A DNA stretch of 64,000 nt from IMG/VR virus record IMGVR_UViG_3300037067_006044, positions 37,565 through 101,564 of that record, one strand, 5' to 3'. Made by a program: the position numbers and the translations under genes. The notes beneath the pieces are model-generated. The model made no database searches and was not told where the DNA came from. It saw only the letters and a list, made by a program, of their open reading frames with translations. Of the stretch, positions 19,171 to 41,332 are shown in pieces. Position 1 is the first letter of the stretch. Each line of letters starts with the position of its first letter. This DNA comes from a virus. Lineage: Duplodnaviria > Caudoviricetes.

Positions 19171-20979
19171 ATGAAATGTAAATTTTGTCAAGAAGAAATT
19201 AAAGAAGGAAAAGAATATTGTAATAGAACATGTTTTAATAATCACAGAAAAGAATTATATTATAAAATTGTAAAATGTTTAAATTGTACTAATACAATAC
19301 AAATAAAAAAAACAAATAATCATACTAAATTCTGTTGTAATAATTGTAAAAAAGAATTTGCAAATAAACAATATAAACACAAAAAAATATGCAAAAACTG
19401 CAGCAGAGAATTTGAATTATATAAATCAGAAACATTGATATTTTGTTGTCATGCTTGTAGATGCGAATATGATAGAAAACAATTTAGAGAAGACAGAATT
19501 TGTAAAAAATGTGGAAACACATTTAACACATTTAAAAGTAGTGATCAAGAATTTTGTACTCATGAATGTTATATTGAATATATAAAAGAAATAACAAAAA
19601 TAAAATATGATACAGAATTTTCAAATTGTTTATTATGTGGAGAAAAAATAAGATTAAATGAAAAATTTTGTTGTAAGGCACATAAAGAAAAATATTATTC
19701 ACAAAAAAGCAGAGAAATAAGAATATGTGAATGTGGTAGAGAATTTGAAGTGTATAAAAAAGATTCAAAATTTTTATGTTCTGATGAATGTCAAAAAAAA
19801 TATATTCTAAAACCAGAAGTTTTGGATAAGATAAAAGAAAAACGTGCAATCACTTCTAATTTCAATAATTATAATGCAAGAATAGACAAAATAAAATCTT
19901 TAAATTTATTTGATTTTGATTGTTCGGAAGAAGAGTATAAATCCAATAAAAATATTAAATTAAAATGTAAAAAATGTGGATATGAATTTGAAGAAAAAAT
20001 TAATTTAAATCATTTGCCAAGTTGTATAAAATGTAATCCTATTCCATATATATTATCTAAACCAGAAGAAGAATTAAGTGATTATATACATTCTATAATA
20101 AATAAAAATATAATAGAAAATAAAAGAACAATTATAAGACCTTTAGAATTAGATTTTTATCTACCAGATTATAATTTAGCTATTGAATTTGATGGTTGTT
20201 ATTGGCATAGTGAAATTCATGGACATAAAGATAAAAAATATCATATTAATAAAACTAAAATGTGTGAATCCCAAGGAATTCAATTAATTCATATATTTGA
20301 TGATGAATGGACAAATAAAAAAGAAATAATTAAAAACACAATAAAACATAAATTAAATTTAAATAATACAGATAAAATATATGCAAGAAAATGTATAATT
20401 AAAGAAATAAATTCAAAAACAAAAAATACATTTTTAAATAATAATCACATTCAAGGAGAAGATAAAAGTAAAATTAAACTCGGATTATTTTATAATGATG
20501 AATTAGTTGCAGTCATGACTTTTGGAAAATTGCGATTAGCATTAGGAAATAAAACATCTAATATTAATGAATATGAGTTAATAAGATTTGCAACATCTAA
20601 AACAATTATTGGTGGATTTAGTAAATTATTGTCTTATTTTATTAAAACATATAATCCAATTAAAATAACAACTTATGCTGATAAAAGATGGAGTAATGGA
20701 AATGTTTATATTAAAAACGGATTTAATCTTATACATGAAACTCAACCAAATTATTGGTATATGAAAAATTATAGTATTAGAGAACATAGATTCAAATATA
20801 GAAAATCAGAATTACCTAAATTATTAACAAATTATAATTCGGAATTAACTGAATGGGATAATATGCAATTAAATGGATATGATAGAATTTGGGATTGTGG
20901 TTCATTAAAATTTGAAATGAATATCTCTCAACTTAATACTTCTGATAAAAATAATATTAACAAGCTATTCGAATTTTAA
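19171..20979 (+). CDS. Hef-like free-standing homing endonuclease, paralog of 15759-17453
   Basis: Many CxxC...FCxxxC treble-clef repeats; ELDFYLP...AIEFDGCYWHS; KIYARKC, NHIQG, WDCG; ends KLFEF. Confidence 0.85.
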   Translation: MKCKFCQEEIKEGKEYCNRTCFNNHRKELYYKIVKCLNCTNTIQIKKTNNHTKFCCNNCKKEFANKQYKHKKICKNCSREFELYKSETLIFCCHACRCEYDRKQFREDRICKKCGNTFNTFKSSDQEFCTHECYIEYIKEITKIKYDTEFSNCLLCGEKIRLNEKFCCKAHKEKYYSQKSREIRICECGREFEVYKKDSKFLCSDECQKKYILKPEVLDKIKEKRAITSNFNNYNARIDKIKSLNLFDFDCSEEEYKSNKNIKLKCKKCGYEFEEKINLNHLPSCIKCNPIPYILSKPEEELSDYIHSIINKNIIENKRTIIRPLELDFYLPDYNLAIEFDGCYWHSEIHGHKDKKYHINKTKMCESQGIQLIHIFDDEWTNKKEIIKNTIKHKLNLNNTDKIYARKCIIKEINSKTKNTFLNNNHIQGEDKSKIKLGLFYNDELVAVMTFGKLRLALGNKTSNINEYELIRFATSKTIIGGFSKLLSYFIKTYNPIKITTYADKRWSNGNVYIKNGFNLIHETQPNYWYMKNYSIREHRFKYRKSELPKLLTNYNSELTEWDNMQLNGYDRIWDCGSLKFEMNISQLNTSDKNNINKLFEF

Positions 20980-32825: not shown

Positions 32826-33473
32826 TTATCTTTTATATTTATAATATGTAGATTCCTTAATATTCATAATAGACATAATATCCAATCTGTTTTTATTTTC
32901 TTTTATTAATTCTAAAAATTTAAGTAATCTTGGAATTATAAGTGGATTTTCTTTTCTTTTTTCTAAATATAATTTATAATTCAATTTATATTTTTCAGAA
33001 TTTTTAACACCATCCCCAATTTTAGTTTTTTGTTCCTCTGATAATAATTGTCCTGTTTTGGTTTTACTTATTTTATCTTTTATTTCTTGTGTTAAATGTA
33101 AAGGTCTTTTACCATCTTTAAATTCTTTTTTAATTCTAATAGACATTTTCTTCTTATTGTCTTCCGAATGTATTGGTTTGCCTGTTTTGGTTTTACTTAT
33201 TTTGTCTTTTATTTCTTGTGACATCAATTTACCAAAATTTGGATTTTTATCTCCTGTCCATTGTCCTATTCTGTTTTTTTGTATTTCGTCTTTATTTGGA
33301 TTATTTGTAAAAGTATCTCCTCCCCAATAACCATCTGAAATATTGTAACCATATCCTTGCTTATTTGCTTGTAATTCTTTAATCCAAAATCCTTCTTGTA
33401 TAATCATTTTTTCTTTTGAATCACAATGTTCTAAAATTACATTAATGTCTTTTAAAGGATTTTTTTTATTCAT
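32826..33473 (-). CDS. N-terminally truncated GIY-YIG homing endonuclease with NUMOD3 repeats
   Basis: ILEHC...E.FWIKE...GYNI half-domain but no GIY/YIG; QEIKDKISKTKTG twice. Confidence 0.7.
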   Translation of the reverse strand: MNKKNPLKDINVILEHCDSKEKMIIQEGFWIKELQANKQGYGYNISDGYWGGDTFTNNPNKDEIQKNRIGQWTGDKNPNFGKLMSQEIKDKISKTKTGKPIHSEDNKKKMSIRIKKEFKDGKRPLHLTQEIKDKISKTKTGQLLSEEQKTKIGDGVKNSEKYKLNYKLYLEKRKENPLIIPRLLKFLELIKENKNRLDIMSIMNIKESTYYKYKR

Positions 33474-34055: not shown

Positions 34056-34118
34056 AAGAATAAATTATATGTCTATTAAAATTTCAAGTTTTTAGAAGTA
34101 AGACATATTTAGATTCTT
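34056..34118 (-). ncRNA. structured RNA motif copy A (UUACUUCUA motif)
   Basis: AAGAAT-CTAAA-TATGTC-TTACTTCTA-AAAA[CTTGAAA]TTTT-AATA-GACATA-TAATTT-ATTCTT. Confidence 0.75.
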
Positions 34119-34122
34119 AATG

Positions 34123-34194
34123 TAACCCATCCTGGATTTGAACCAGGGATACCAAGATGAAAACCTGGTGTGATAACCACTTCACCAATGGGGT
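34123..34194 (-). tRNA. tRNA-Glu(UUC)
   Basis: Cloverleaf: D arm GTGA/TCAC, anticodon arm CCAGG-TTTTCAT-CTTGG, T arm CCTGG-TTCAAAT-CCAGG; one acceptor mismatch; no encoded CCA. Confidence 0.85.
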
Positions 34195-34207: not shown

Positions 34208-34274
34208 AAGAAATAAATTAATTGACTAATTGAGCTTAACAGGTTCGTAGAAGTAAGTCAATTTTAGATTTCTT
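34208..34274 (-). ncRNA. structured RNA motif copy B
   Basis: AAGAAAT-CTAAA-ATTGAC-TTACTTCTA-CGAAC[CTGTTAA]GCTCA-ATTA-GTCAAT-TAATTT-ATTTCTT. Confidence 0.75.
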
Positions 34275-34333: not shown

Positions 34334-34400
34334 AAGAAAATTAATTTGACAACTATTTAAAATCCATATTTTTAGAAGTAAGTTATCATTAGATTTTCTT
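34334..34400 (-). ncRNA. structured RNA motif copy C
   Basis: AAGAAAAT-CTAA-TGATAAC-TTACTTCTA-AAAA[TATGGA]TTTT-AAATA-GTTGTCA-AATTA-ATTTTCTT; U-G wobble on the minus strand. Confidence 0.75.
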
Positions 34401-34461: not shown

Positions 34462-36501
34462 TTAAATTCCCATAAATTTCATTATATTAATATAATTTGT
34501 TGAAAAATCTTCAAATAAATAATGAGTTGTTGCAGTTTCTTTACTTACTAATCTTCCTCTACTTTCGACATTCCAACTTAATAAATCATATACTGATAGT
34601 TTTGGGTTTTCCGAATACATTTTAATTAAATTAAGAACAGTAGATAAATCTCTACTTGAAACATTTGAGTCCGAATCAATATCTAACCAAATATATTCTC
34701 TTGTTTCTAAATCAATTATACAAAGTAATGTACCTGCTGCCGTCGATTGAATTTGTGTACAATTATTAATCATAGAAGGCATAAAATTAGTATTGGCTTC
34801 TGGATGTTTTCTTCCTTCAAATCCTAAAACACATTGTTCATAGATACTAAATGCTTTATTATCATGATATGAAGCTCTAAAATCTCTTGCATCCATTACA
34901 ACATATTTATATCCTTGTTTAGTTAATTCAGAAACATTTAAATCAATATATTCTGCACAAGCACCATGTCTATCAGTAATATCTCCAGAATATAATGCAA
35001 TTCTATTATTTCTATCTCCATTCCAACCAACAAAGTCAATATTAGTTCCAACTAACCAAGCACCTAAATCTATATCACATCCACCAGGAGTTTCACCATT
35101 ATTAAACCAATGTACAAATGCTCTAATTGTTTTTTGATTAACATTTATTGGCATTCTTTGTCCTCTTATAATTGGTTTTAAAGAAGGATTTAAACTTCTC
35201 ATATTTGTTGGCAATGGTATTTTCTTTAATTCTTCGTCAATCCAACAATCTCCTAATTTATCTGATAAACTAAATTTATATTTTAGAGTTTCAAATATTT
35301 GACTTTGAATTTCATTAATAATATTTTCAGATAATGGTTCTAAAGATATTAATTGCTTTGATTTTCTATGTCCTTTAATAAATATATTTCTGTCTTGTTC
35401 AACTCGTCTGTTTTCAAAATGAGTATAAACTTCAAATAAAACTTTGTTAGATATTTTATCAGATACTTTACATAGAACATTAAATATATCTTGAATTTTA
35501 TCTTTATTAGTTCTAATTAAATAATCCAGTCTTCTGACAAATTCTCCTGGTCTTTCTGATAATTTATTTAATCCTGTTTCAAATGACGTTTTAAACGCTT
35601 TATCAACTTCACCATTCCAAGATACAACTTTTTCATTTCTTAATTGTTGAAATGATTTAAATGATTTTGGATATTGTTTAGAATAATTTCCTGGATGAAT
35701 AATTTCTCCTAACTTAATCCATCTCTCGATTTTAAGTTTCATTTCTCTTACATCTAAATTAGAGTTTTCTAAAAGAGAAAGAATATATCGTTTTTCTGAA
35801 TTAGTGAATTTTTTGAATTTATTTTTATCTGCGTTTTTCTTTGTTATTGCTGGTAACGAAATATCTCCACCTGACATTGATAATGCTATTCTAAGAACAT
35901 CAGTTGTTGTTTTAACTGGAACATTTATTTCCATTCCTGCTAATGTACATAAGTTTTCTTTAAATGGAATTTCTTTTGGAAATTGTAATTTTCTTCCACT
36001 ATTAACAAACCATTTAATAACATCTAAATCTGTTGGAGTTAATGATTGATTGGCACTACATAAATCAGTAAATATTTTATCAAACATTTCTTCTGTTCCT
36101 GATTTGATAATAGTGTAATTAGGTTGTTCAAATGCAACTTGTTTTTCTTTAGTCCATATCTGAACAGTATCAAATTTACCATTCGTCCAATAATGAACAA
36201 ATTGATTATACCATAATTCATATTCAGATAATTCTAAAACTTGAGTTGGAAATCCTGGATATAATGGTTGATAATTTCTATTACTGCCAGTCATTTCTTT
36301 TAAATAAGAAATTACTTCATTATGAAATTCTATAATTTCAGATTTATCAGAATAACCAAGTTGTTTAAAAGCATCTTTATTTAACATATATCCAAATCTC
36401 ATCAATTCAGATTGAACTTGAGAAACAAATAAACGATTATCTACATTAATGTTTTTTGTGGTTATAAAACCGTTTGAAAAAGAAATAACATTTTTTGTCA
36501 T
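34462..36501 (-). CDS. large alpha-helical protein with probable TerD-like C-terminal domain (MXAN_6230/SCO0854-like, no RING finger seen)
   Basis: PLYPGFP, IPFKENL, TTTDVLR, IHPG, RPGEFVRRLDYLIR, C-terminal FVHW...DIDL...YSGDIT..GACAEYIDL; family recalled from memory, not searched. Confidence 0.65.
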   Translation of the reverse strand: MTKNVISFSNGFITTKNINVDNRLFVSQVQSELMRFGYMLNKDAFKQLGYSDKSEIIEFHNEVISYLKEMTGSNRNYQPLYPGFPTQVLELSEYELWYNQFVHYWTNGKFDTVQIWTKEKQVAFEQPNYTIIKSGTEEMFDKIFTDLCSANQSLTPTDLDVIKWFVNSGRKLQFPKEIPFKENLCTLAGMEINVPVKTTTDVLRIALSMSGGDISLPAITKKNADKNKFKKFTNSEKRYILSLLENSNLDVREMKLKIERWIKLGEIIHPGNYSKQYPKSFKSFQQLRNEKVVSWNGEVDKAFKTSFETGLNKLSERPGEFVRRLDYLIRTNKDKIQDIFNVLCKVSDKISNKVLFEVYTHFENRRVEQDRNIFIKGHRKSKQLISLEPLSENIINEIQSQIFETLKYKFSLSDKLGDCWIDEELKKIPLPTNMRSLNPSLKPIIRGQRMPINVNQKTIRAFVHWFNNGETPGGCDIDLGAWLVGTNIDFVGWNGDRNNRIALYSGDITDRHGACAEYIDLNVSELTKQGYKYVVMDARDFRASYHDNKAFSIYEQCVLGFEGRKHPEANTNFMPSMINNCTQIQSTAAGTLLCIIDLETREYIWLDIDSDSNVSSRDLSTVLNLIKMYSENPKLSVYDLLSWNVESRGRLVSKETATTHYLFEDFSTNYINIMKFMGI

Positions 36502-36521: not shown

Positions 36522-36581
36522 TTAATAAATTATATCACTATCAAAATCAATATTTTTAGAAGTAAGTGATATTTAGATTAA
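36522..36581 (-). ncRNA. structured RNA motif copy D, 20 nt upstream of the 679-aa start codon
   Basis: TTAAT-CTAAA-TATCAC-TTACTTCTA-AAAA[TATTGA]TTTT-GATA-GTGATA-TAATTT-ATTAA. Confidence 0.75.
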
Positions 36582-36587
36582 AAATTG

Positions 36588-36706
36588 AAGAGTAGATTGG
36601 ATTCGAACCAATGACCAGGAGATTAGAAATCTTAGAAGTAACTTTATTTTAGATTTCGTTGATAAATTAATAAAGTAACCTGCTCTACCAGCTGAGCTAC
36701 TACTCT
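36588..36706 (-). ncRNA. tRNA-Arg(UCU)-like RNA with 46-nt motif insertion in the anticodon stem, copy 1
   Basis: AGAGTAG/CTACTCT acceptor, GCTC-AGCTGGTA-GAGC D arm, GG[46 nt]AGA-TTTCTAA-TCTCC, ATTGG-TTCGAAT-CCAAT T arm; 73 nt without the insert. Confidence 0.85.
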
Positions 36707-36749
36707 TATCAATATTTTTAGAAGTAAGTGATATTTAGATTAAAAATTG

Positions 36750-36868
36750 AAGAATAGATTGGATTCGAACCAATGACCAGGAGATTAGAAATCTTAGAAG
36801 TAACTTTATTTTAGATTTCGTTGATAAATTAATAAAGTAACCTGCTCTACCAGCTGAGCTACTACTCT
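36750..36868 (-). ncRNA. tRNA-Arg(UCU)-like RNA with 46-nt motif insertion, copy 2
   Basis: Same as copy 1 except a G-U wobble in the acceptor stem (CTATTCT). Confidence 0.85.
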
Positions 36869-36897
36869 TATCAATATTTTTAGAACTTTGTGTTTTG

Positions 36898-36972
36898 TGA
36901 CCCATCTGTGACTCGAACACAGGACCCTATCATTAAAAGTGATATGCTCTAAACCAACTGAGCTAATGAGTC
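36898..36972 (-). tRNA. tRNA-Lys(UUU)
   Basis: GACTCAT/ATGGGTC acceptor, TATCA-CTTTTAA-TGATA anticodon arm, CTGTG-TTCGAGT-CACAG T arm. Confidence 0.93.
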
Positions 36973-36981
36973 TTTTATTTT

Positions 36982-37047
36982 AAAGAATGAATTAAACAAC
37001 TATTAAAATATATAAATTTTTAGAAGTAAGTTGTTCTTAAATTCTTT
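36982..37047 (-). ncRNA. structured RNA motif copy E
   Basis: AAAGAAT-TTAAG-AACAAC-TTACTTCTA-AAAAT[TTATAT]ATTTT-AATA-GTTGTT-TAATTC-ATTCTTT. Confidence 0.72.
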
Positions 37048-38213: not shown

Positions 38214-38849
38214 TCATAAATTAAATTTTTTAACATTTTCAACATCTTTATCCCAAATAATACAAGTTAAATCTTCATTTTTCATAATTTTATTTATAGT
38301 ATTATTAATAATAAAACTATCTCCTCCTGCTAATCCACTTCCTATCAACGGAAATAAAAACTTTAAATTTTTATTACCAAAATCTTTCTTTAAATTAATA
38401 AACAATTTTTCAATTGCATTTAATCTTATTCTTTCTGTTTTAGATTTATCACTATTGGGTTCATATAATCCATAACTATATTGGGAATATCCATTAATAA
38501 TAGAAAACTTACCTGCTTTATATTCTGAATAATTTCCTAATTTATTAATATCTCCTTTAATTGTTTGTTTATCAATTAAAAGAACTTCTGGATATTTATT
38601 TGATATTTGTTTAGCTATTCCAGCTCCCATTACACAGAAACAATTACAACCATGAATTATAATATCATAATTGTTTAATTCATCTAATAGATTTCCTTTA
38701 ATATATTTGATTGTATTTTTATTTTCCATTTTTGTTCTTCTTTTCTTTGAATTTTCTTTTTGGTGTTTATTCCAAGTTATCCATTCTTCTTCTGATAGAT
38801 TATCTATTAATCCGAAGAATTGATTGTCTAATTTCTTCCAATTTGCCAT
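38214..38849 (-). CDS. macrodomain (ADP-ribose processing, T4 tk.4-like) protein
   Basis: IKGNLL...IIHGCNCFCVMGAGIAKQI...FPLIGSGLAGG; start may be the internal MENKN. Confidence 0.9.
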   Translation of the reverse strand: MANWKKLDNQFFGLIDNLSEEEWITWNKHQKENSKKRRTKMENKNTIKYIKGNLLDELNNYDIIIHGCNCFCVMGAGIAKQISNKYPEVLLIDKQTIKGDINKLGNYSEYKAGKFSIINGYSQYSYGLYEPNSDKSKTERIRLNAIEKLFINLKKDFGNKNLKFLFPLIGSGLAGGDSFIINNTINKIMKNEDLTCIIWDKDVENVKKFNL

Positions 38850-40057: not shown

Positions 40058-41332
40058 TTATTCGAATTCTACAATGTATTTCGGTGTACATTGTCTGTCA
40101 TCATATATAATATACTCTGATCTATATAATGAAACTCCTTTTTGAGCCCAAACACTATCATAATCAGAATTTTTAATTTGTTTACTAATATTATAACAAT
40201 CCGAATCATGTTTTGTTTTTATTAATTGTTTCCCTACATGAAAATCAAATAATAATAAAAGTTGTTTTGATGTAGATTGTCCTCCAACCCATCTACCAGA
40301 ATCTGTATATCCAAAACTCTTATCATGATCCGAAGCTGCATAAATACCTGAATCCCACATATTTCCATTGAAATTGGCGAAAGATGGACGAATTAATAAA
40401 GATTTGCTGATTATGCTTAAATAATTACAACTTTTTGAACCGTGCCACAATAATTGTGTTTCTTTATTCTTAGCATTCTTTACATAATTATCGAATATTT
40501 CTTGTTGTTTATAATTAGTAATTCTAAATGCTTGTTTAAATCTTTGATGACTTGTATCGCTATCTTTTATAATTTTCTTAATCTTATCTTCTTCATCTTT
40601 AGTAATTGGTTCAATATTAATTCCAAGAGATTTAAGAATATCAAACTTATCACTTATTCCTTTTTCGTTCTTAATCTTTTCAATCTCTTGTTTAATTGTG
40701 TCTCTTTGACTTTTTACATTCTGTTCAAGTGCATCTAATAATTCCTGTTCATTATCTATCTTTTCAAATGCCTTTTGTAATTCGTCTTTATCTACAATCG
40801 GAGTAAATAATGAAGTTTTAACATCTCTCAATTTTCTTTGAGAAAGAGAAATAAGTTCTAAATAATCATTGTTTATTTTATTAATATCACAATTAACAGA
40901 AATATTTTGTCTAATATTACTAATTAATTCATTTACTCTTTTAAAGAGTTTATCATTTGGAAGTACATCACCTAAGATATAGTTTTCTTTAATAGTATTA
41001 CTACTTGCATTATTAAGATAAACTATTAAATCGTGAATTAGTTTATTTTCTATTTGGAAAGATTGTGAATTACCATCTGACGATTCTTTTAAAGATATCA
41101 ACTCGAAAAATTCTGTGCGGTCAATATATCCCTTTTTATCTGATATAGAACCATTGTATTTTGTTCTCCACCCAGATTCAGATTTTTGTTCAAGTTTACC
41201 AGAAGAACCAATTCTTCCATAGTAACATTCAAACATATTTTCTTTTTTAATTGCCTTCCAAAATTTATAATTGTTTTCCATTGGGCGACAACTAACAAGA
41301 TAATAAAAGTCTTTAATTTCAAAATTACTCAT
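40058..41332 (-). CDS. PARP-like ADP-ribosyltransferase (WGR, helical and catalytic domains)
   Basis: NNYKFW...YYGRIG (WGR), LLWHGS, GNMWDSGIYAA, KSFGY, SEYIIY: H-Y-E triad present. Confidence 0.88.
   Translation of the reverse strand: MSNFEIKDFYYLVSCRPMENNYKFWKAIKKENMFECYYGRIGSSGKLEQKSESGWRTKYNGSISDKKGYIDRTEFFELISLKESSDGNSQSFQIENKLIHDLIVYLNNASSNTIKENYILGDVLPNDKLFKRVNELISNIRQNISVNCDINKINNDYLELISLSQRKLRDVKTSLFTPIVDKDELQKAFEKIDNEQELLDALEQNVKSQRDTIKQEIEKIKNEKGISDKFDILKSLGINIEPITKDEEDKIKKIIKDSDTSHQRFKQAFRITNYKQQEIFDNYVKNAKNKETQLLWHGSKSCNYLSIISKSLLIRPSFANFNGNMWDSGIYAASDHDKSFGYTDSGRWVGGQSTSKQLLLLFDFHVGKQLIKTKHDSDCYNISKQIKNSDYDSVWAQKGVSLYRSEYIIYDDRQCTPKYIVEFE

What the first reader, a model, noticed from the sequence alone, without database searches (positions are those of the whole stretch)
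36588..36868. tRNA-Arg(UCU) with a circularly permuted copy of the motif grafted into its anticodon stem
Seen: a complete cloverleaf is interrupted after the second base of the anticodon stem by 46 nt (36633-36678 and 36795-36840): TTA-CTTTAT-TAATTT-ATCAACGAAAT-CTAAA-ATAAAG-TTACTTCTA. This is the array motif in permuted order, so the tRNA takes the place of the variable hairpin. Exact removal gives a 73-nt tRNA with a perfect GGAGA/TCTCC stem and a UUUCUAA loop. The insert is far too short for a group I intron and does not sit in the anticodon loop. Inference: it is either a protein-tethered tRNA mimic (YrlA-like but with open acceptor ends) or a new kind of protein-spliced tRNA intron.
Basis: partly seen in the sequence, partly recalled or inferred. 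Interest (0 to 1): 0.9.

Follow-up and report, generated by a model that had tools for sequence, protein, structure and literature searches.

The report
tRNA-shaped RNA carrying a permuted Y-RNA-like module
A jumbo-phage "tRNA-Arg" gene is split in its anticodon stem by a rearranged copy of a small folded RNA that sits beside one uncharacterised protein in many phages and bacteria, so it is more likely a protein-tethered tRNA look-alike (like bacterial Y RNAs) than an ordinary tRNA with an intron.

Summary
Two tandem 162-nt copies each hold a full tRNA cloverleaf with anticodon UCU. A 46-nt insert splits it between nucleotides 28 and 29.

The insert is a circular permutation of a structured RNA module (P1, J1/2, P2, UUACUUCUA, variable arm, J2/1). 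Five free copies of that module lie nearby.

The module is a real RNA family that Rfam lacks:
- A covariance model found 114 copies next to homologues of the neighbouring 679-aa protein (helical domain plus TerD fold) in jumbo phages.
- It found 67 more beside bacterial homologues.
- All copies are on the gene's strand. Covariation is strong. There were no hits at E<=0.1 in 831 kb of control DNA.

Eleven relatives carry the same tRNA-embedded form with other anticodons (Asn, Gln, Phe, Tyr, Ala, Ser, amber-like).
- The anticodon differs between phages whose neighbouring protein is 95-99% identical.
- The bodies break the matching synthetase identity rules.
- One relative has the non-permuted form with a closed acceptor, and it hits Rfam YrlA.

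Best reading: an unspliced, Y-RNA-like tRNA mimic (about 0.55). A new protein-dependent intron is not excluded (about 0.25).

This scan had already flagged the RNA array and protein pair on other genomes. The tRNA-embedded form is the new part.

The parts
36750..36868 (-). tRNA-shaped RNA gene, copy 1: exon 1 at 36841-36868, 46-nt permuted module at 36795-36840, exon 2 at 36750-36794; anticodon loop UUUCUAA
   Evidence: Rfam RF00005 43 bits; sequence; parse
36588..36706 (-). tRNA-shaped RNA gene, copy 2: exon 1 at 36679-36706, 46-nt permuted module at 36633-36678, exon 2 at 36588-36632
   Evidence: Rfam RF00005 45.4 bits. The MFE keeps the acceptor, D and T arms and folds the insert as a P2 hairpin.
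36546..36869 (.). 162-nt tandem duplication (two copies, 99% identical) with a partial third junction at 36870-36892. It places a 3' half, a spacer and a 5' half between two module halves.
   Evidence: the repeat finder family D1 and D6
36707..36749 (-). Spacer between the two copies. It is a truncated free unit (5' box, P2 5' strand and 9-mer, with no 3' partner).
36522..36581 (-). Free unit D, directly upstream of the 679-aa gene
36982..37047 (-). Free unit E, upstream of tRNA-Lys
34334..34400 (-). Free unit C, first unit downstream of the 679-aa gene
34208..34274 (-). Free unit B. Its variable arm is an Asn-like anticodon hairpin (loop CUGUUAA).
34056..34118 (-). Free unit A. Its variable arm has loop CUUGAAA.
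34462..36501 (-). 679-aa protein with an N-terminal helical-repeat domain and a C-terminal TerD-fold domain. It is the inferred protein partner of the module.
   Evidence: phrog_33734; AF2 pLDDT 91.8; TerD Z 14-15; RNA units adjacent in 58 phage and 60 bacterial loci
36897..36972 (-). Ordinary tRNA-Lys(UUU) inside the array
34122..34194 (-). Ordinary tRNA-Glu(UUC) inside the array

Best explanation
**What it is.** The two genes encode a tRNA-shaped non-coding RNA, not a conventional tRNA. A tRNA body resembling the phages' tRNA-Asn keeps open acceptor ends. It carries, in its anticodon stem, a circularly permuted copy of a widespread protein-binding-type RNA module.

**The module.** It has a closing helix P1, joiner CUAU/CUAAAU, helix P2, invariant UU(A/C)CUUCUA, a variable arm, and joiner ..UUU.

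**The fold in the window form.** P1 is closed by a short loop. P2 forms between the two ends of the insert. The remaining 3-bp anticodon hairpin and the tRNA body occupy the position of the module's variable arm. The result is a junction that shows an anticodon loop right after the 9-mer.

**How it probably works (inferred).**
- The RNA is cut out and CCA-tailed like a tRNA.
- It stays unspliced.
- Its module binds the neighbouring 679-aa helical-plus-TerD protein.
- This tethers a tRNA look-alike to that protein, as Y RNAs (YrlA) tether a tRNA-like domain to Ro60.
- The likely setting is tRNA damage, repair or decoy conflicts.

**Shown:** the anatomy, the RNA family and its covariation, the gene linkage, and the recurrence and variability of embedded forms.

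**Inferred:** transcription, lack of splicing, protein binding, and biological role.
For: **1. The module is a real structured RNA family.**
- Model R1 found 114 units in 513 kb of phage loci. All were on the protein's strand and next to it.
- 431 cells changed on both sides, against 166 +/- 11 in shuffles. Covariation score was 0.585 against 0.18. Slid controls reached at most 0.23.
- R1 found 67 more units beside bacterial homologues.
- In 831 kb of control DNA it found only 2 hits, at E 0.38 and 0.75.

**2. Embedded forms recur in 11 relatives**.
- Inserts sit at 28/29, 29/30 or after C32.
- Anticodons are GUU, UUG, GAA, GUA, UGC, UGA and CUA-like.

**3. The anticodon varies while the neighbouring protein barely changes**.
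- L179 is Asn-type and L182 is Phe-type at 98.7% protein identity.
- L188 is Gln-type at about 95% identity.
- L182 and L188 share the same tRNA body.

**4. Identity elements do not fit the anticodons.**
- The window RNA has U20, where the plain phage tRNA-Arg has A20.
- The Ala-type has G3:C70. The Tyr- and Ser-types have 5-nt variable loops, while the plain Tyr and Ser tRNAs have long arms.
- The rules themselves come from established knowledge of ArgRS, AlaRS, TyrRS and SerRS.

**5. Plain isoacceptors coexist.** L052 has a plain Asn and a plain Arg tRNA in the same genome.

**6. Topological isomers exist.**
- L228 3684-3827 is a normal unit whose variable arm is a closed-acceptor tRNA-like body. 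It matches Rfam YrlA positions 23-85 at E 8e-7.
- L235 has a complete tRNA with CCA in a unit's variable arm.

**7. Some bacterial homologues sit next to tRNA/RNA repair genes.**
- An Rnl2-type RNA ligase in L277 and a Thg1-like enzyme in L249.
- The window's own phage encodes an Rnl1-type ligase.

**8. The whole-protein model weakly resembles Ro60.** Three Ro60 entries give Z 5.0-5.5 over 293-304 aligned residues.
Against: - No expression data exist. Nothing shows that the RNA is made, stays unspliced, or binds the protein.
- Exact removal of the insert always restores a canonical 5-bp stem and a 7-nt loop with U33 and a purine at 37. A true intron would look the same.
- The anticodons seen (AGA, AAU, UAU, UUU, CAA, GCA, UCA readers) are those an AT-rich phage would want.
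- In the 101-kb piece this is the only tRNA-Arg(UCU)-like gene. It sits next to ordinary Lys and Glu tRNAs, and the phage has an Rnl1 ligase.
- P2 pairing is clear in the window and in L172, but weak (2-4 bp) in the Asn, Gln and Phe types.
- The Ro60 resemblance is below the level that excludes chance for helical repeats. TROVE is not detected by sequence.
- The identity rules were taken from model bacteria, and the host is unknown.
Confidence: 0.55

Rival explanations
1. It is a genuine intron of a new, protein-dependent kind. The module is recognised (by the 679-aa protein or a partner nuclease) and cut out at both junctions. The halves are joined by a phage or host RNA ligase. The products are a working tRNA-Arg(UCU) and a 46-nt mini-module RNA.
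For: - Precise excision restores a perfect cloverleaf in all 12 embedded forms.
- The acceptor, anticodon and T stems show compensatory changes among relatives.
- The 3' trailers (N73 followed by CAA) match those of plain phage tRNAs.
- The phage encodes an Rnl1-type RNA ligase.
- In the available 101 kb there is no other tRNA-Arg(UCU), although Lys and Glu tRNAs sit in the same cluster.
- Enigmatic short introns have been reported in Lak megaphage tRNAs, with no mechanism known (PMC6784885).
Against: - The 101-kb piece has no tRNA-splicing endonuclease and no RtcB.
- There is no bulge-helix-bulge at the junctions in the predicted fold.
- Junction positions and the spacing from the 9-mer to exon 2 vary (0-7 nt to U33).
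- The bodies violate the identity rules of the amino acid their anticodon names.
- The anticodon differs between 95-99% identical phages.
- Closed-acceptor and whole-tRNA-in-unit isomers cannot be explained by splicing.
- Most copies of the module are free-standing and cannot be introns.
Confidence: 0.25
2. It is a dead tRNA gene. A piece of a neighbouring unit was recombined into tRNA-Arg, and the scar was then duplicated. It has no function.
For: - The region is recombination-prone. It has a 162-nt tandem duplication, a truncated unit in the spacer, and shared 16-nt junction sequences.
- The two window copies are too recent to show purifying selection on their own.
Against: - The same architecture occurs in 11 diverged relatives.
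- Those relatives have intact, compensated stems, conserved insert 5' halves, and a compensatory CUAAG/CUUAG versus CUUAG/CUAAG swap.
- The insert is a complete, orderly permutation of the module, not a fragment.
Confidence: 0.08
3. The repeated motif works at the DNA level, as a phage promoter or a recombination or homing site that happens to lie inside a tRNA gene.
For: - In the window each free unit lies upstream of a gene.
- The 3' joiner of each unit looks like a -10 box.
- Homing-endonuclease-like genes are nearby.
Against: - Two helices covary while their sequences drift, in over 180 copies across phages and bacteria of several phyla.
- Strand and position are fixed relative to one protein gene.
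- Many bacterial copies end in a U run after P1, like separate small-RNA genes.
- Promoter scans are at background level.
Confidence: 0.05

Closest known systems
Bacterial and phage Y RNAs of the YrlA type with Ro60/Rsr (Rfam RF02553; Chen et al. 2014, PMC4201824)
   Same: - Small RNA genes, often several, lie next to and on the same strand as one helical-repeat protein gene.
- A stem with conserved unpaired bases is joined to a variable module that can be a tRNA-like body with D arm, T arm and acceptor.
- One relative's body hits the YrlA model.
- RNA-repair genes sit nearby in some genomes.
- Natural differences in arm order are already known between YrlA and Yrn1.
   Different: - The partner protein has a TerD domain instead of vWA and has no detectable TROVE signature.
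- The conserved RNA module (P1, P2, UU(A/C)CUUCUA) is unrelated to the GNCGAA Rsr-binding motif.
- In the window form the RNA ends are at the acceptor stem and the module is internal.
- A complete anticodon hairpin is kept and varies between phages.
Short 'enigmatic' introns in Lak megaphage tRNAs (Devoto et al. 2019, PMC6784885)
   Same: Huge AT-rich phages carry tRNA genes interrupted by short, conserved, non-group-I inserts. No mechanism is known.
   Different: No sequence match to Lak phages was found. The Lak inserts were described at or near the anticodon loop, with no link to a repeated RNA module or a partner protein. I did not examine the Lak sequences directly.
Archaeal/eukaryal non-canonical BHB introns and permuted tRNA genes (review PMC4090602)
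   Same: Inserts occur at non-canonical positions, including the anticodon stem. Both permuted and split arrangements of tRNA halves exist.
   Different: There is no bulge-helix-bulge at the junctions and no splicing endonuclease gene in the piece. The context is bacterial viruses. The insert carries a conserved module that also exists free-standing.
Group I introns in bacterial and phage tRNA genes
   Same: They interrupt tRNA genes in bacteria and phages.
   Different: Group I introns are over 200 nt, sit in the anticodon loop and have a catalytic core. Here the insert is 46 nt, sits in the stem, and gives no RF00028 match in the window.

Membership tests
tRNA (RF00005) | Cloverleaf with acceptor, D, anticodon and T arms | tested here: met
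   45.4 and 43 bits over model 1-71, with the insert treated as an insertion; parse
tRNA (RF00005) | Continuous anticodon stem-loop that fits the ribosome | tested here: not met
   46 nt lie between positions 28 and 29. Whether they are removed is unknown.
tRNA-Arg (functional isoacceptor) | ArgRS identity elements: A20 together with C35 and U36 (established for bacterial ArgRS) | tested here: not met
   C35 and U36 are present. The D loop AGCUGGUA gives U20. The plain phage tRNA-Arg(UCU) in relatives has A20.
Group I intron | Catalytic core of about 200 nt or more; location in the anticodon loop | tested here: not met
   The insert is 46 nt. No RF00028 match in the window at gathering score or at E<=5.
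BHB (endonuclease-spliced) tRNA intron | Two 3-nt bulges separated by a 4-bp helix at the splice sites | tested here: not met
   In the MFE fold the 5' junction lies inside a helix and the 3' junction lies after a 3-nt linker. No BHB forms.
BHB (endonuclease-spliced) tRNA intron | A tRNA-splicing endonuclease is available | tested here: inconclusive
   PF01974 is absent from the 101-kb record, but the record is about 36% complete and the host is unknown.
YrlA / Y RNA (RF02553) | Encoded within 4 kb of a TROVE/Ro60 gene on the same strand | tested here: not met
   The neighbour is a helical-plus-TerD protein. PF05731 is absent. The structural resemblance to Ro60 is only Z 5.0-5.5.
YrlA / Y RNA (RF02553) | GNCGAAN0-1G Rsr-binding motif in the stem | tested here: not met
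   The motif is not present in the units. No YrlA match in the window at E<=5.
YrlA / Y RNA (RF02553) | tRNA-like module with D and T arms and an acceptor-like stem | tested here: met
   Present in the window with open acceptor ends. The closed-acceptor relative in L228 matches YrlA model positions 23-85 at E 8e-7, below the gathering score.
UU(A/C)CUUCUA module family (defined here, model R1) | P1 and P2 helices with covariation, joiners, the invariant 9-mer, and same-strand adjacency to the 679-aa protein gene | tested here: met
   Free units. In the window insert every element is present in permuted order, with P1 reduced to a short capped stem.

The most novel reading that the evidence does not exclude
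The module is the recognition handle of a previously unknown, protein-dependent RNA cut-and-join system in bacteriophages. It excises the 46-nt module from the anticodon stem. This yields a working tRNA and a mini Y-like RNA, and it could also mature the permuted and closed-acceptor forms. It would be a third kind of tRNA splicing, alongside group I and BHB-endonuclease splicing.
Probability: 0.2. Interest if true: 0.92.

Novelty: new variant of a known kind. Interest (0 to 1): 0.8.

Why it matters
- It points to a widespread RNA-protein pair that is in neither Rfam nor Pfam. The pair occurs in jumbo phages and in bacteria of at least five phyla, and it parallels the Ro60/Y RNA particle.
- In phages this module has repeatedly been fused to tRNA bodies in three different topologies. 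The displayed anticodon changes between near-identical phages. That pattern fits tRNA-targeted conflict (anticodon nucleases, tRNA repair, decoys).
- If the insert is instead spliced, it would be the first non-group-I tRNA intron mechanism in the bacterial world. It could also explain the unexplained introns of megaphage tRNAs.
- Either outcome can be tested directly with small-RNA sequencing and protein pull-downs.

Tried and rejected
- **Motif scans.** Exact-pattern scans of IMG/VR for the 24-nt window motif and for a D-arm-plus-9-mer pattern gave almost only chance matches in coding DNA. The useful relatives came from the protein and from the pattern GGCTAT-N-9mer.
- **blastn.** A search of the region against GenBank phages found only tRNA-Lys matches.
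- **Rfam.** It matches no family to the units at gathering score or at E<=5.
- **Protein sequence searches.** Pfam and PDB sequence searches give nothing for the 679-aa protein beyond a faint TerD signal.
- **First structure model.** The first AlphaFold model, built from 8 sequences, was poor (pLDDT 65.6) and was replaced by the 50-sequence model.
- **N-terminal domain.** Foldseek and VIA second-look searches give no clear fold for it.
- **Promoter and terminator scans.** They are uninformative in 21% GC DNA.
- **Self-cleaving ribozyme.** I considered hammerhead, twister, pistol and hatchet. Rfam gave no match, and none of those conserved cores is visible.
- **IS200/IS605-type mini element (TTAC target).** The boundaries do not fit.
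- **MotA-type or hairpin promoter.** Helix covariation and the bacterial distribution argue against it.
- **P2 in the Asn, Gln and Phe embedded forms.** I looked for a conserved pairing and found only 2-4 bp.
- **L217 Ser-type form.** It lies 2.6 kb from the protein gene and lacks the GGCUA box, so I treat it as doubtful.

Full report
**Setting**

The window is the last 64 kb of a 101.5-kb IMG/VR virus record. CheckV puts it at about 36% complete, so the virus is probably a jumbo phage of some 280 kb. It has 21% G+C.

**The observation**

- On the minus strand, Rfam's tRNA model matches 36588-36706 (45.4 bits) and 36750-36868 (43 bits) end to end. ARAGORN calls only the neighbouring tRNA-Lys and tRNA-Glu.
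- Reading the sequence gives an acceptor stem, D arm and the first two pairs of the anticodon stem (28 nt). Then come 46 nt. Then come the last three pairs of the stem, loop UUUCUAA, a 5-nt variable loop, the T arm and the acceptor 3' strand.
- The two genes are copies of a 162-nt tandem duplication, 99% identical.

**The insert is a permuted copy of the neighbouring repeat**

Five free units lie at 34056-34118, 34208-34274, 34334-34400, 36522-36581 and 36982-37047. They share one layout:
- a closing helix P1;
- joiner CUAAAU;
- an 8-bp helix P2;
- the invariant UUACUUCUA;
- a small variable hairpin;
- the P2 3' strand;
- joiner UAAUUU;
- the P1 3' strand.

In an alignment of the five, 98.6% of cells are paired and 9 of 14 pairs change on both sides. 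Slid controls reach at most 54% paired.

The 46-mer holds the same parts in the order: P2 3' strand, UAAUUU, a short capped remnant of P1, CUAAA, P2 5' strand, 9-mer. The 3-bp anticodon hairpin and the tRNA body therefore stand where the variable hairpin stands in a free unit.

The predicted fold keeps the acceptor, D and T arms and folds the insert as the P2 hairpin.

**The repeat is a real RNA family, tied to one protein**

- The gene between the units (34462-36501, minus strand, 679 aa) has no Pfam family.
- With a 50-sequence alignment, AlphaFold gives pLDDT 91.8. The C-terminal 450-630 is a TerD-fold sandwich (Z 14-15). The N-terminal 360 residues are helical repeats with no clear match.
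- Over the whole chain, the only long alignments are to three Ro60 structures (Z 5.0-5.5, 293-304 residues, rmsd 4.8-5.8). That is suggestive but within the range chance can give for helical repeats.
- Homologues at 26-51% identity were fetched from 58 viral loci and 60 bacterial genome loci.
- A covariance model of the unit (R1) found 114 units in the viral loci. All were on the protein's strand. They lay either within about 400 nt upstream or in arrays of 2-8 just downstream.
- It found 67 units in the bacterial loci with the same placement. The bacteria include Planctomycetota, Acidobacteriota, Bacteroidota, Brevibacillus and Zooshikella.
- Covariation in the 114 is strong: 431 double-sided cells against 166 +/- 11 in shuffles, score 0.585 against 0.18, slid controls at most 0.23. 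The alignment was fitted to the model, which favours it somewhat.
- In 831 kb of unrelated phage DNA the model found nothing below E 0.38.
- Many bacterial units end in a U run after P1, like separate small-RNA genes. The 9-mer generalises to UU(A/C)CUUCUA.
- Rfam 15 has no family for these units.
- Notes of this scan show that the array-protein pair was already flagged on other genomes, once with a follow-up that reached the Ro60/Y RNA analogy. I re-derived it independently here.

**The tRNA-embedded form recurs, and behaves oddly for a tRNA**

Eleven further embedded forms were found, almost always as the last element of the array.
- All share the D arm and a G-rich acceptor.
- Their stems carry compensatory changes.
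- All end the insert with GGCUA(U/C), 8-9 nt, and the 9-mer.

The insert position varies: 28/29 (Arg and Asn types), 29/30 (one doubtful Ser type), or just after C32 (Gln, Phe, Tyr, Ala and an amber-like type).

Four findings argue against ordinary decoding tRNAs.

1. *The anticodon changes while everything else stays.*
   - L179 (Asn type) and L182 (Phe type) have 98.7% identical neighbouring proteins and otherwise the same array.
   - L188 (Gln type) is about 95% identical and shares its tRNA body with L182.
2. *The bodies ignore the identity rules of the amino acid named by the anticodon.*
   - The Ala type has G3:C70.
   - The Tyr and Ser types have 5-nt variable loops.
   - The window's Arg type has U20.
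   - The plain tRNAs of related phages obey the rules: A20 in Arg, long arms in Tyr and Ser.
   - The rules themselves are established knowledge from model bacteria.
   - The window body (variable loop UGGUC and its T arm) resembles the plain tRNA-Asn, not tRNA-Arg.
3. *Plain isoacceptors sit in the same genomes*.
4. *Other topologies exist.*
   - L228 3684-3827 is a normal, unpermuted unit. Its variable arm is a whole tRNA-like body with the acceptor closed by a 7-nt loop. That body matches Rfam YrlA positions 23-85 at E 8e-7.
   - L235 has a complete tRNA with CCA in a unit's variable arm. It is followed by an embedded form in which the 9-mer's own UCUA lies in the anticodon position.

The 9-mer also contains CUUCUA(A), the anticodon-loop sequence of tRNA-Arg(UCU). 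I cannot say whether that is meaningful.

**Best reading**

The element is a tRNA mimic joined to a protein-binding module. It works like a Y RNA of the YrlA type, but belongs to a different RNA family and has a different inferred protein partner. Here it is circularly permuted, so the RNA ends are the acceptor ends.

Some context supports a link to tRNA damage and repair:
- The window's phage encodes an Rnl1-type RNA ligase.
- In Zooshikella an Rnl2-type ligase precedes the unit and protein. In Gimesia a Thg1-like enzyme does.
- Other bacterial neighbours are unrelated genes.

The variable displayed anticodon suggests a decoy or bait for anticodon-directed enzymes. That is inference only.

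**What keeps splicing alive**

- Excision restores a canonical stem and loop in every case.
- The anticodons are those an AT-rich phage needs.
- This is the only tRNA-Arg(UCU)-like gene in the 101 kb, and it sits beside normal Lys and Glu genes.
- A ligase is present.
- Short unexplained tRNA introns have been reported in Lak megaphages (PMC6784885).

Against splicing:
- The piece has no splicing endonuclease and no RtcB.
- There is no bulge-helix-bulge.
- Junction geometry varies.

I put the mimic at about 0.55, splicing at 0.25, a dead scar at 0.08, a DNA-level element at 0.05, and the rest unknown.

**Verdict**

- The element is not a member of the YrlA family, because the TROVE neighbour and the Rsr motif were tested and not met. 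It works like one.
- Novelty: a new variant of a known kind, built on an uncatalogued RNA family.
- Interest is high, because the case can be tested directly and either outcome is new.

Noticed in passing
G000:C1:7027-7650 (outside the window, upstream part of the record): A 425-aa ORF matches the T4 Rnl1-type RNA ligase family PF09511 (E 4e-21). This is the enzyme class that repairs broken tRNA anticodon loops.
   Followed up: partly
window 40058-41332 and 38214-38849, minus strand: A PARP catalytic domain protein with a weak WGR match, and a macro-domain protein about 1.2 kb apart. Both are co-oriented with the RNA cluster.
   Followed up: no
L235:6547-6804 (Puia sp. MAG contig, 420 kb): A unit with a complete tRNA(CAU)-CCA in its variable arm. 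It is followed by an embedded form in which the 9-mer's own UCUA occupies the anticodon position (CUA, amber-like).
   Followed up: partly
L228:3684-3827: An unpermuted unit holding a closed-acceptor tRNA-like body. It hits Rfam YrlA below the gathering score (37.9 bits, E 8e-7).
   Followed up: yes
L277:1528-2574 and L249:1914-2696: In Zooshikella an Rnl2-type RNA ligase lies directly upstream of the unit plus protein gene on the same strand. In Gimesia a Thg1-like enzyme does. Six other bacterial neighbours tested were unrelated genes or had no Pfam match.
   Followed up: partly
L052:12512-12921, L054:10637-11045, L164:9849-10255; L052:3015-3087: Related phages encode a tmRNA, 16-25 tRNAs upstream of the protein gene, and a tRNA with anticodon CUA. 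This hints at stop-codon recoding in that lineage.
   Followed up: no
L299:10959-11033 (minus strand; 161-kb viral contig): Another tRNA-like gene with an insert of roughly 60 nt after the D arm that ends in UUACUUCU. It lacks the GGCUA box, and its relation to this family is unclear.
   Followed up: no
L179/L191/L197 versus L181, embedded Asn-type inserts: A compensatory swap (CUAAG..CUUAG versus CUUAG..CUAAG) supports a hairpin that puts UUACUU in a loop and pairs the end of the 9-mer plus the first two exon-2 bases. This would be an alternative fold to the cloverleaf.
   Followed up: partly
window 32826-33473 minus strand and 19171-20979 plus strand; L117:343-548: Homing/HNH endonuclease-like ORFs in the window, and a group I intron (Rfam, 72.5 bits) in a related contig. 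Both indicate mobile-element traffic in this phage group.
   Followed up: no
ESM Atlas neighbours of the 679-aa protein: Structure-level relatives include bacterial proteins fused to a prokaryotic RING domain (MXAN_6230/SCO0854 family). The protein family is therefore broader than the phage and bacterial set examined here.
   Followed up: no
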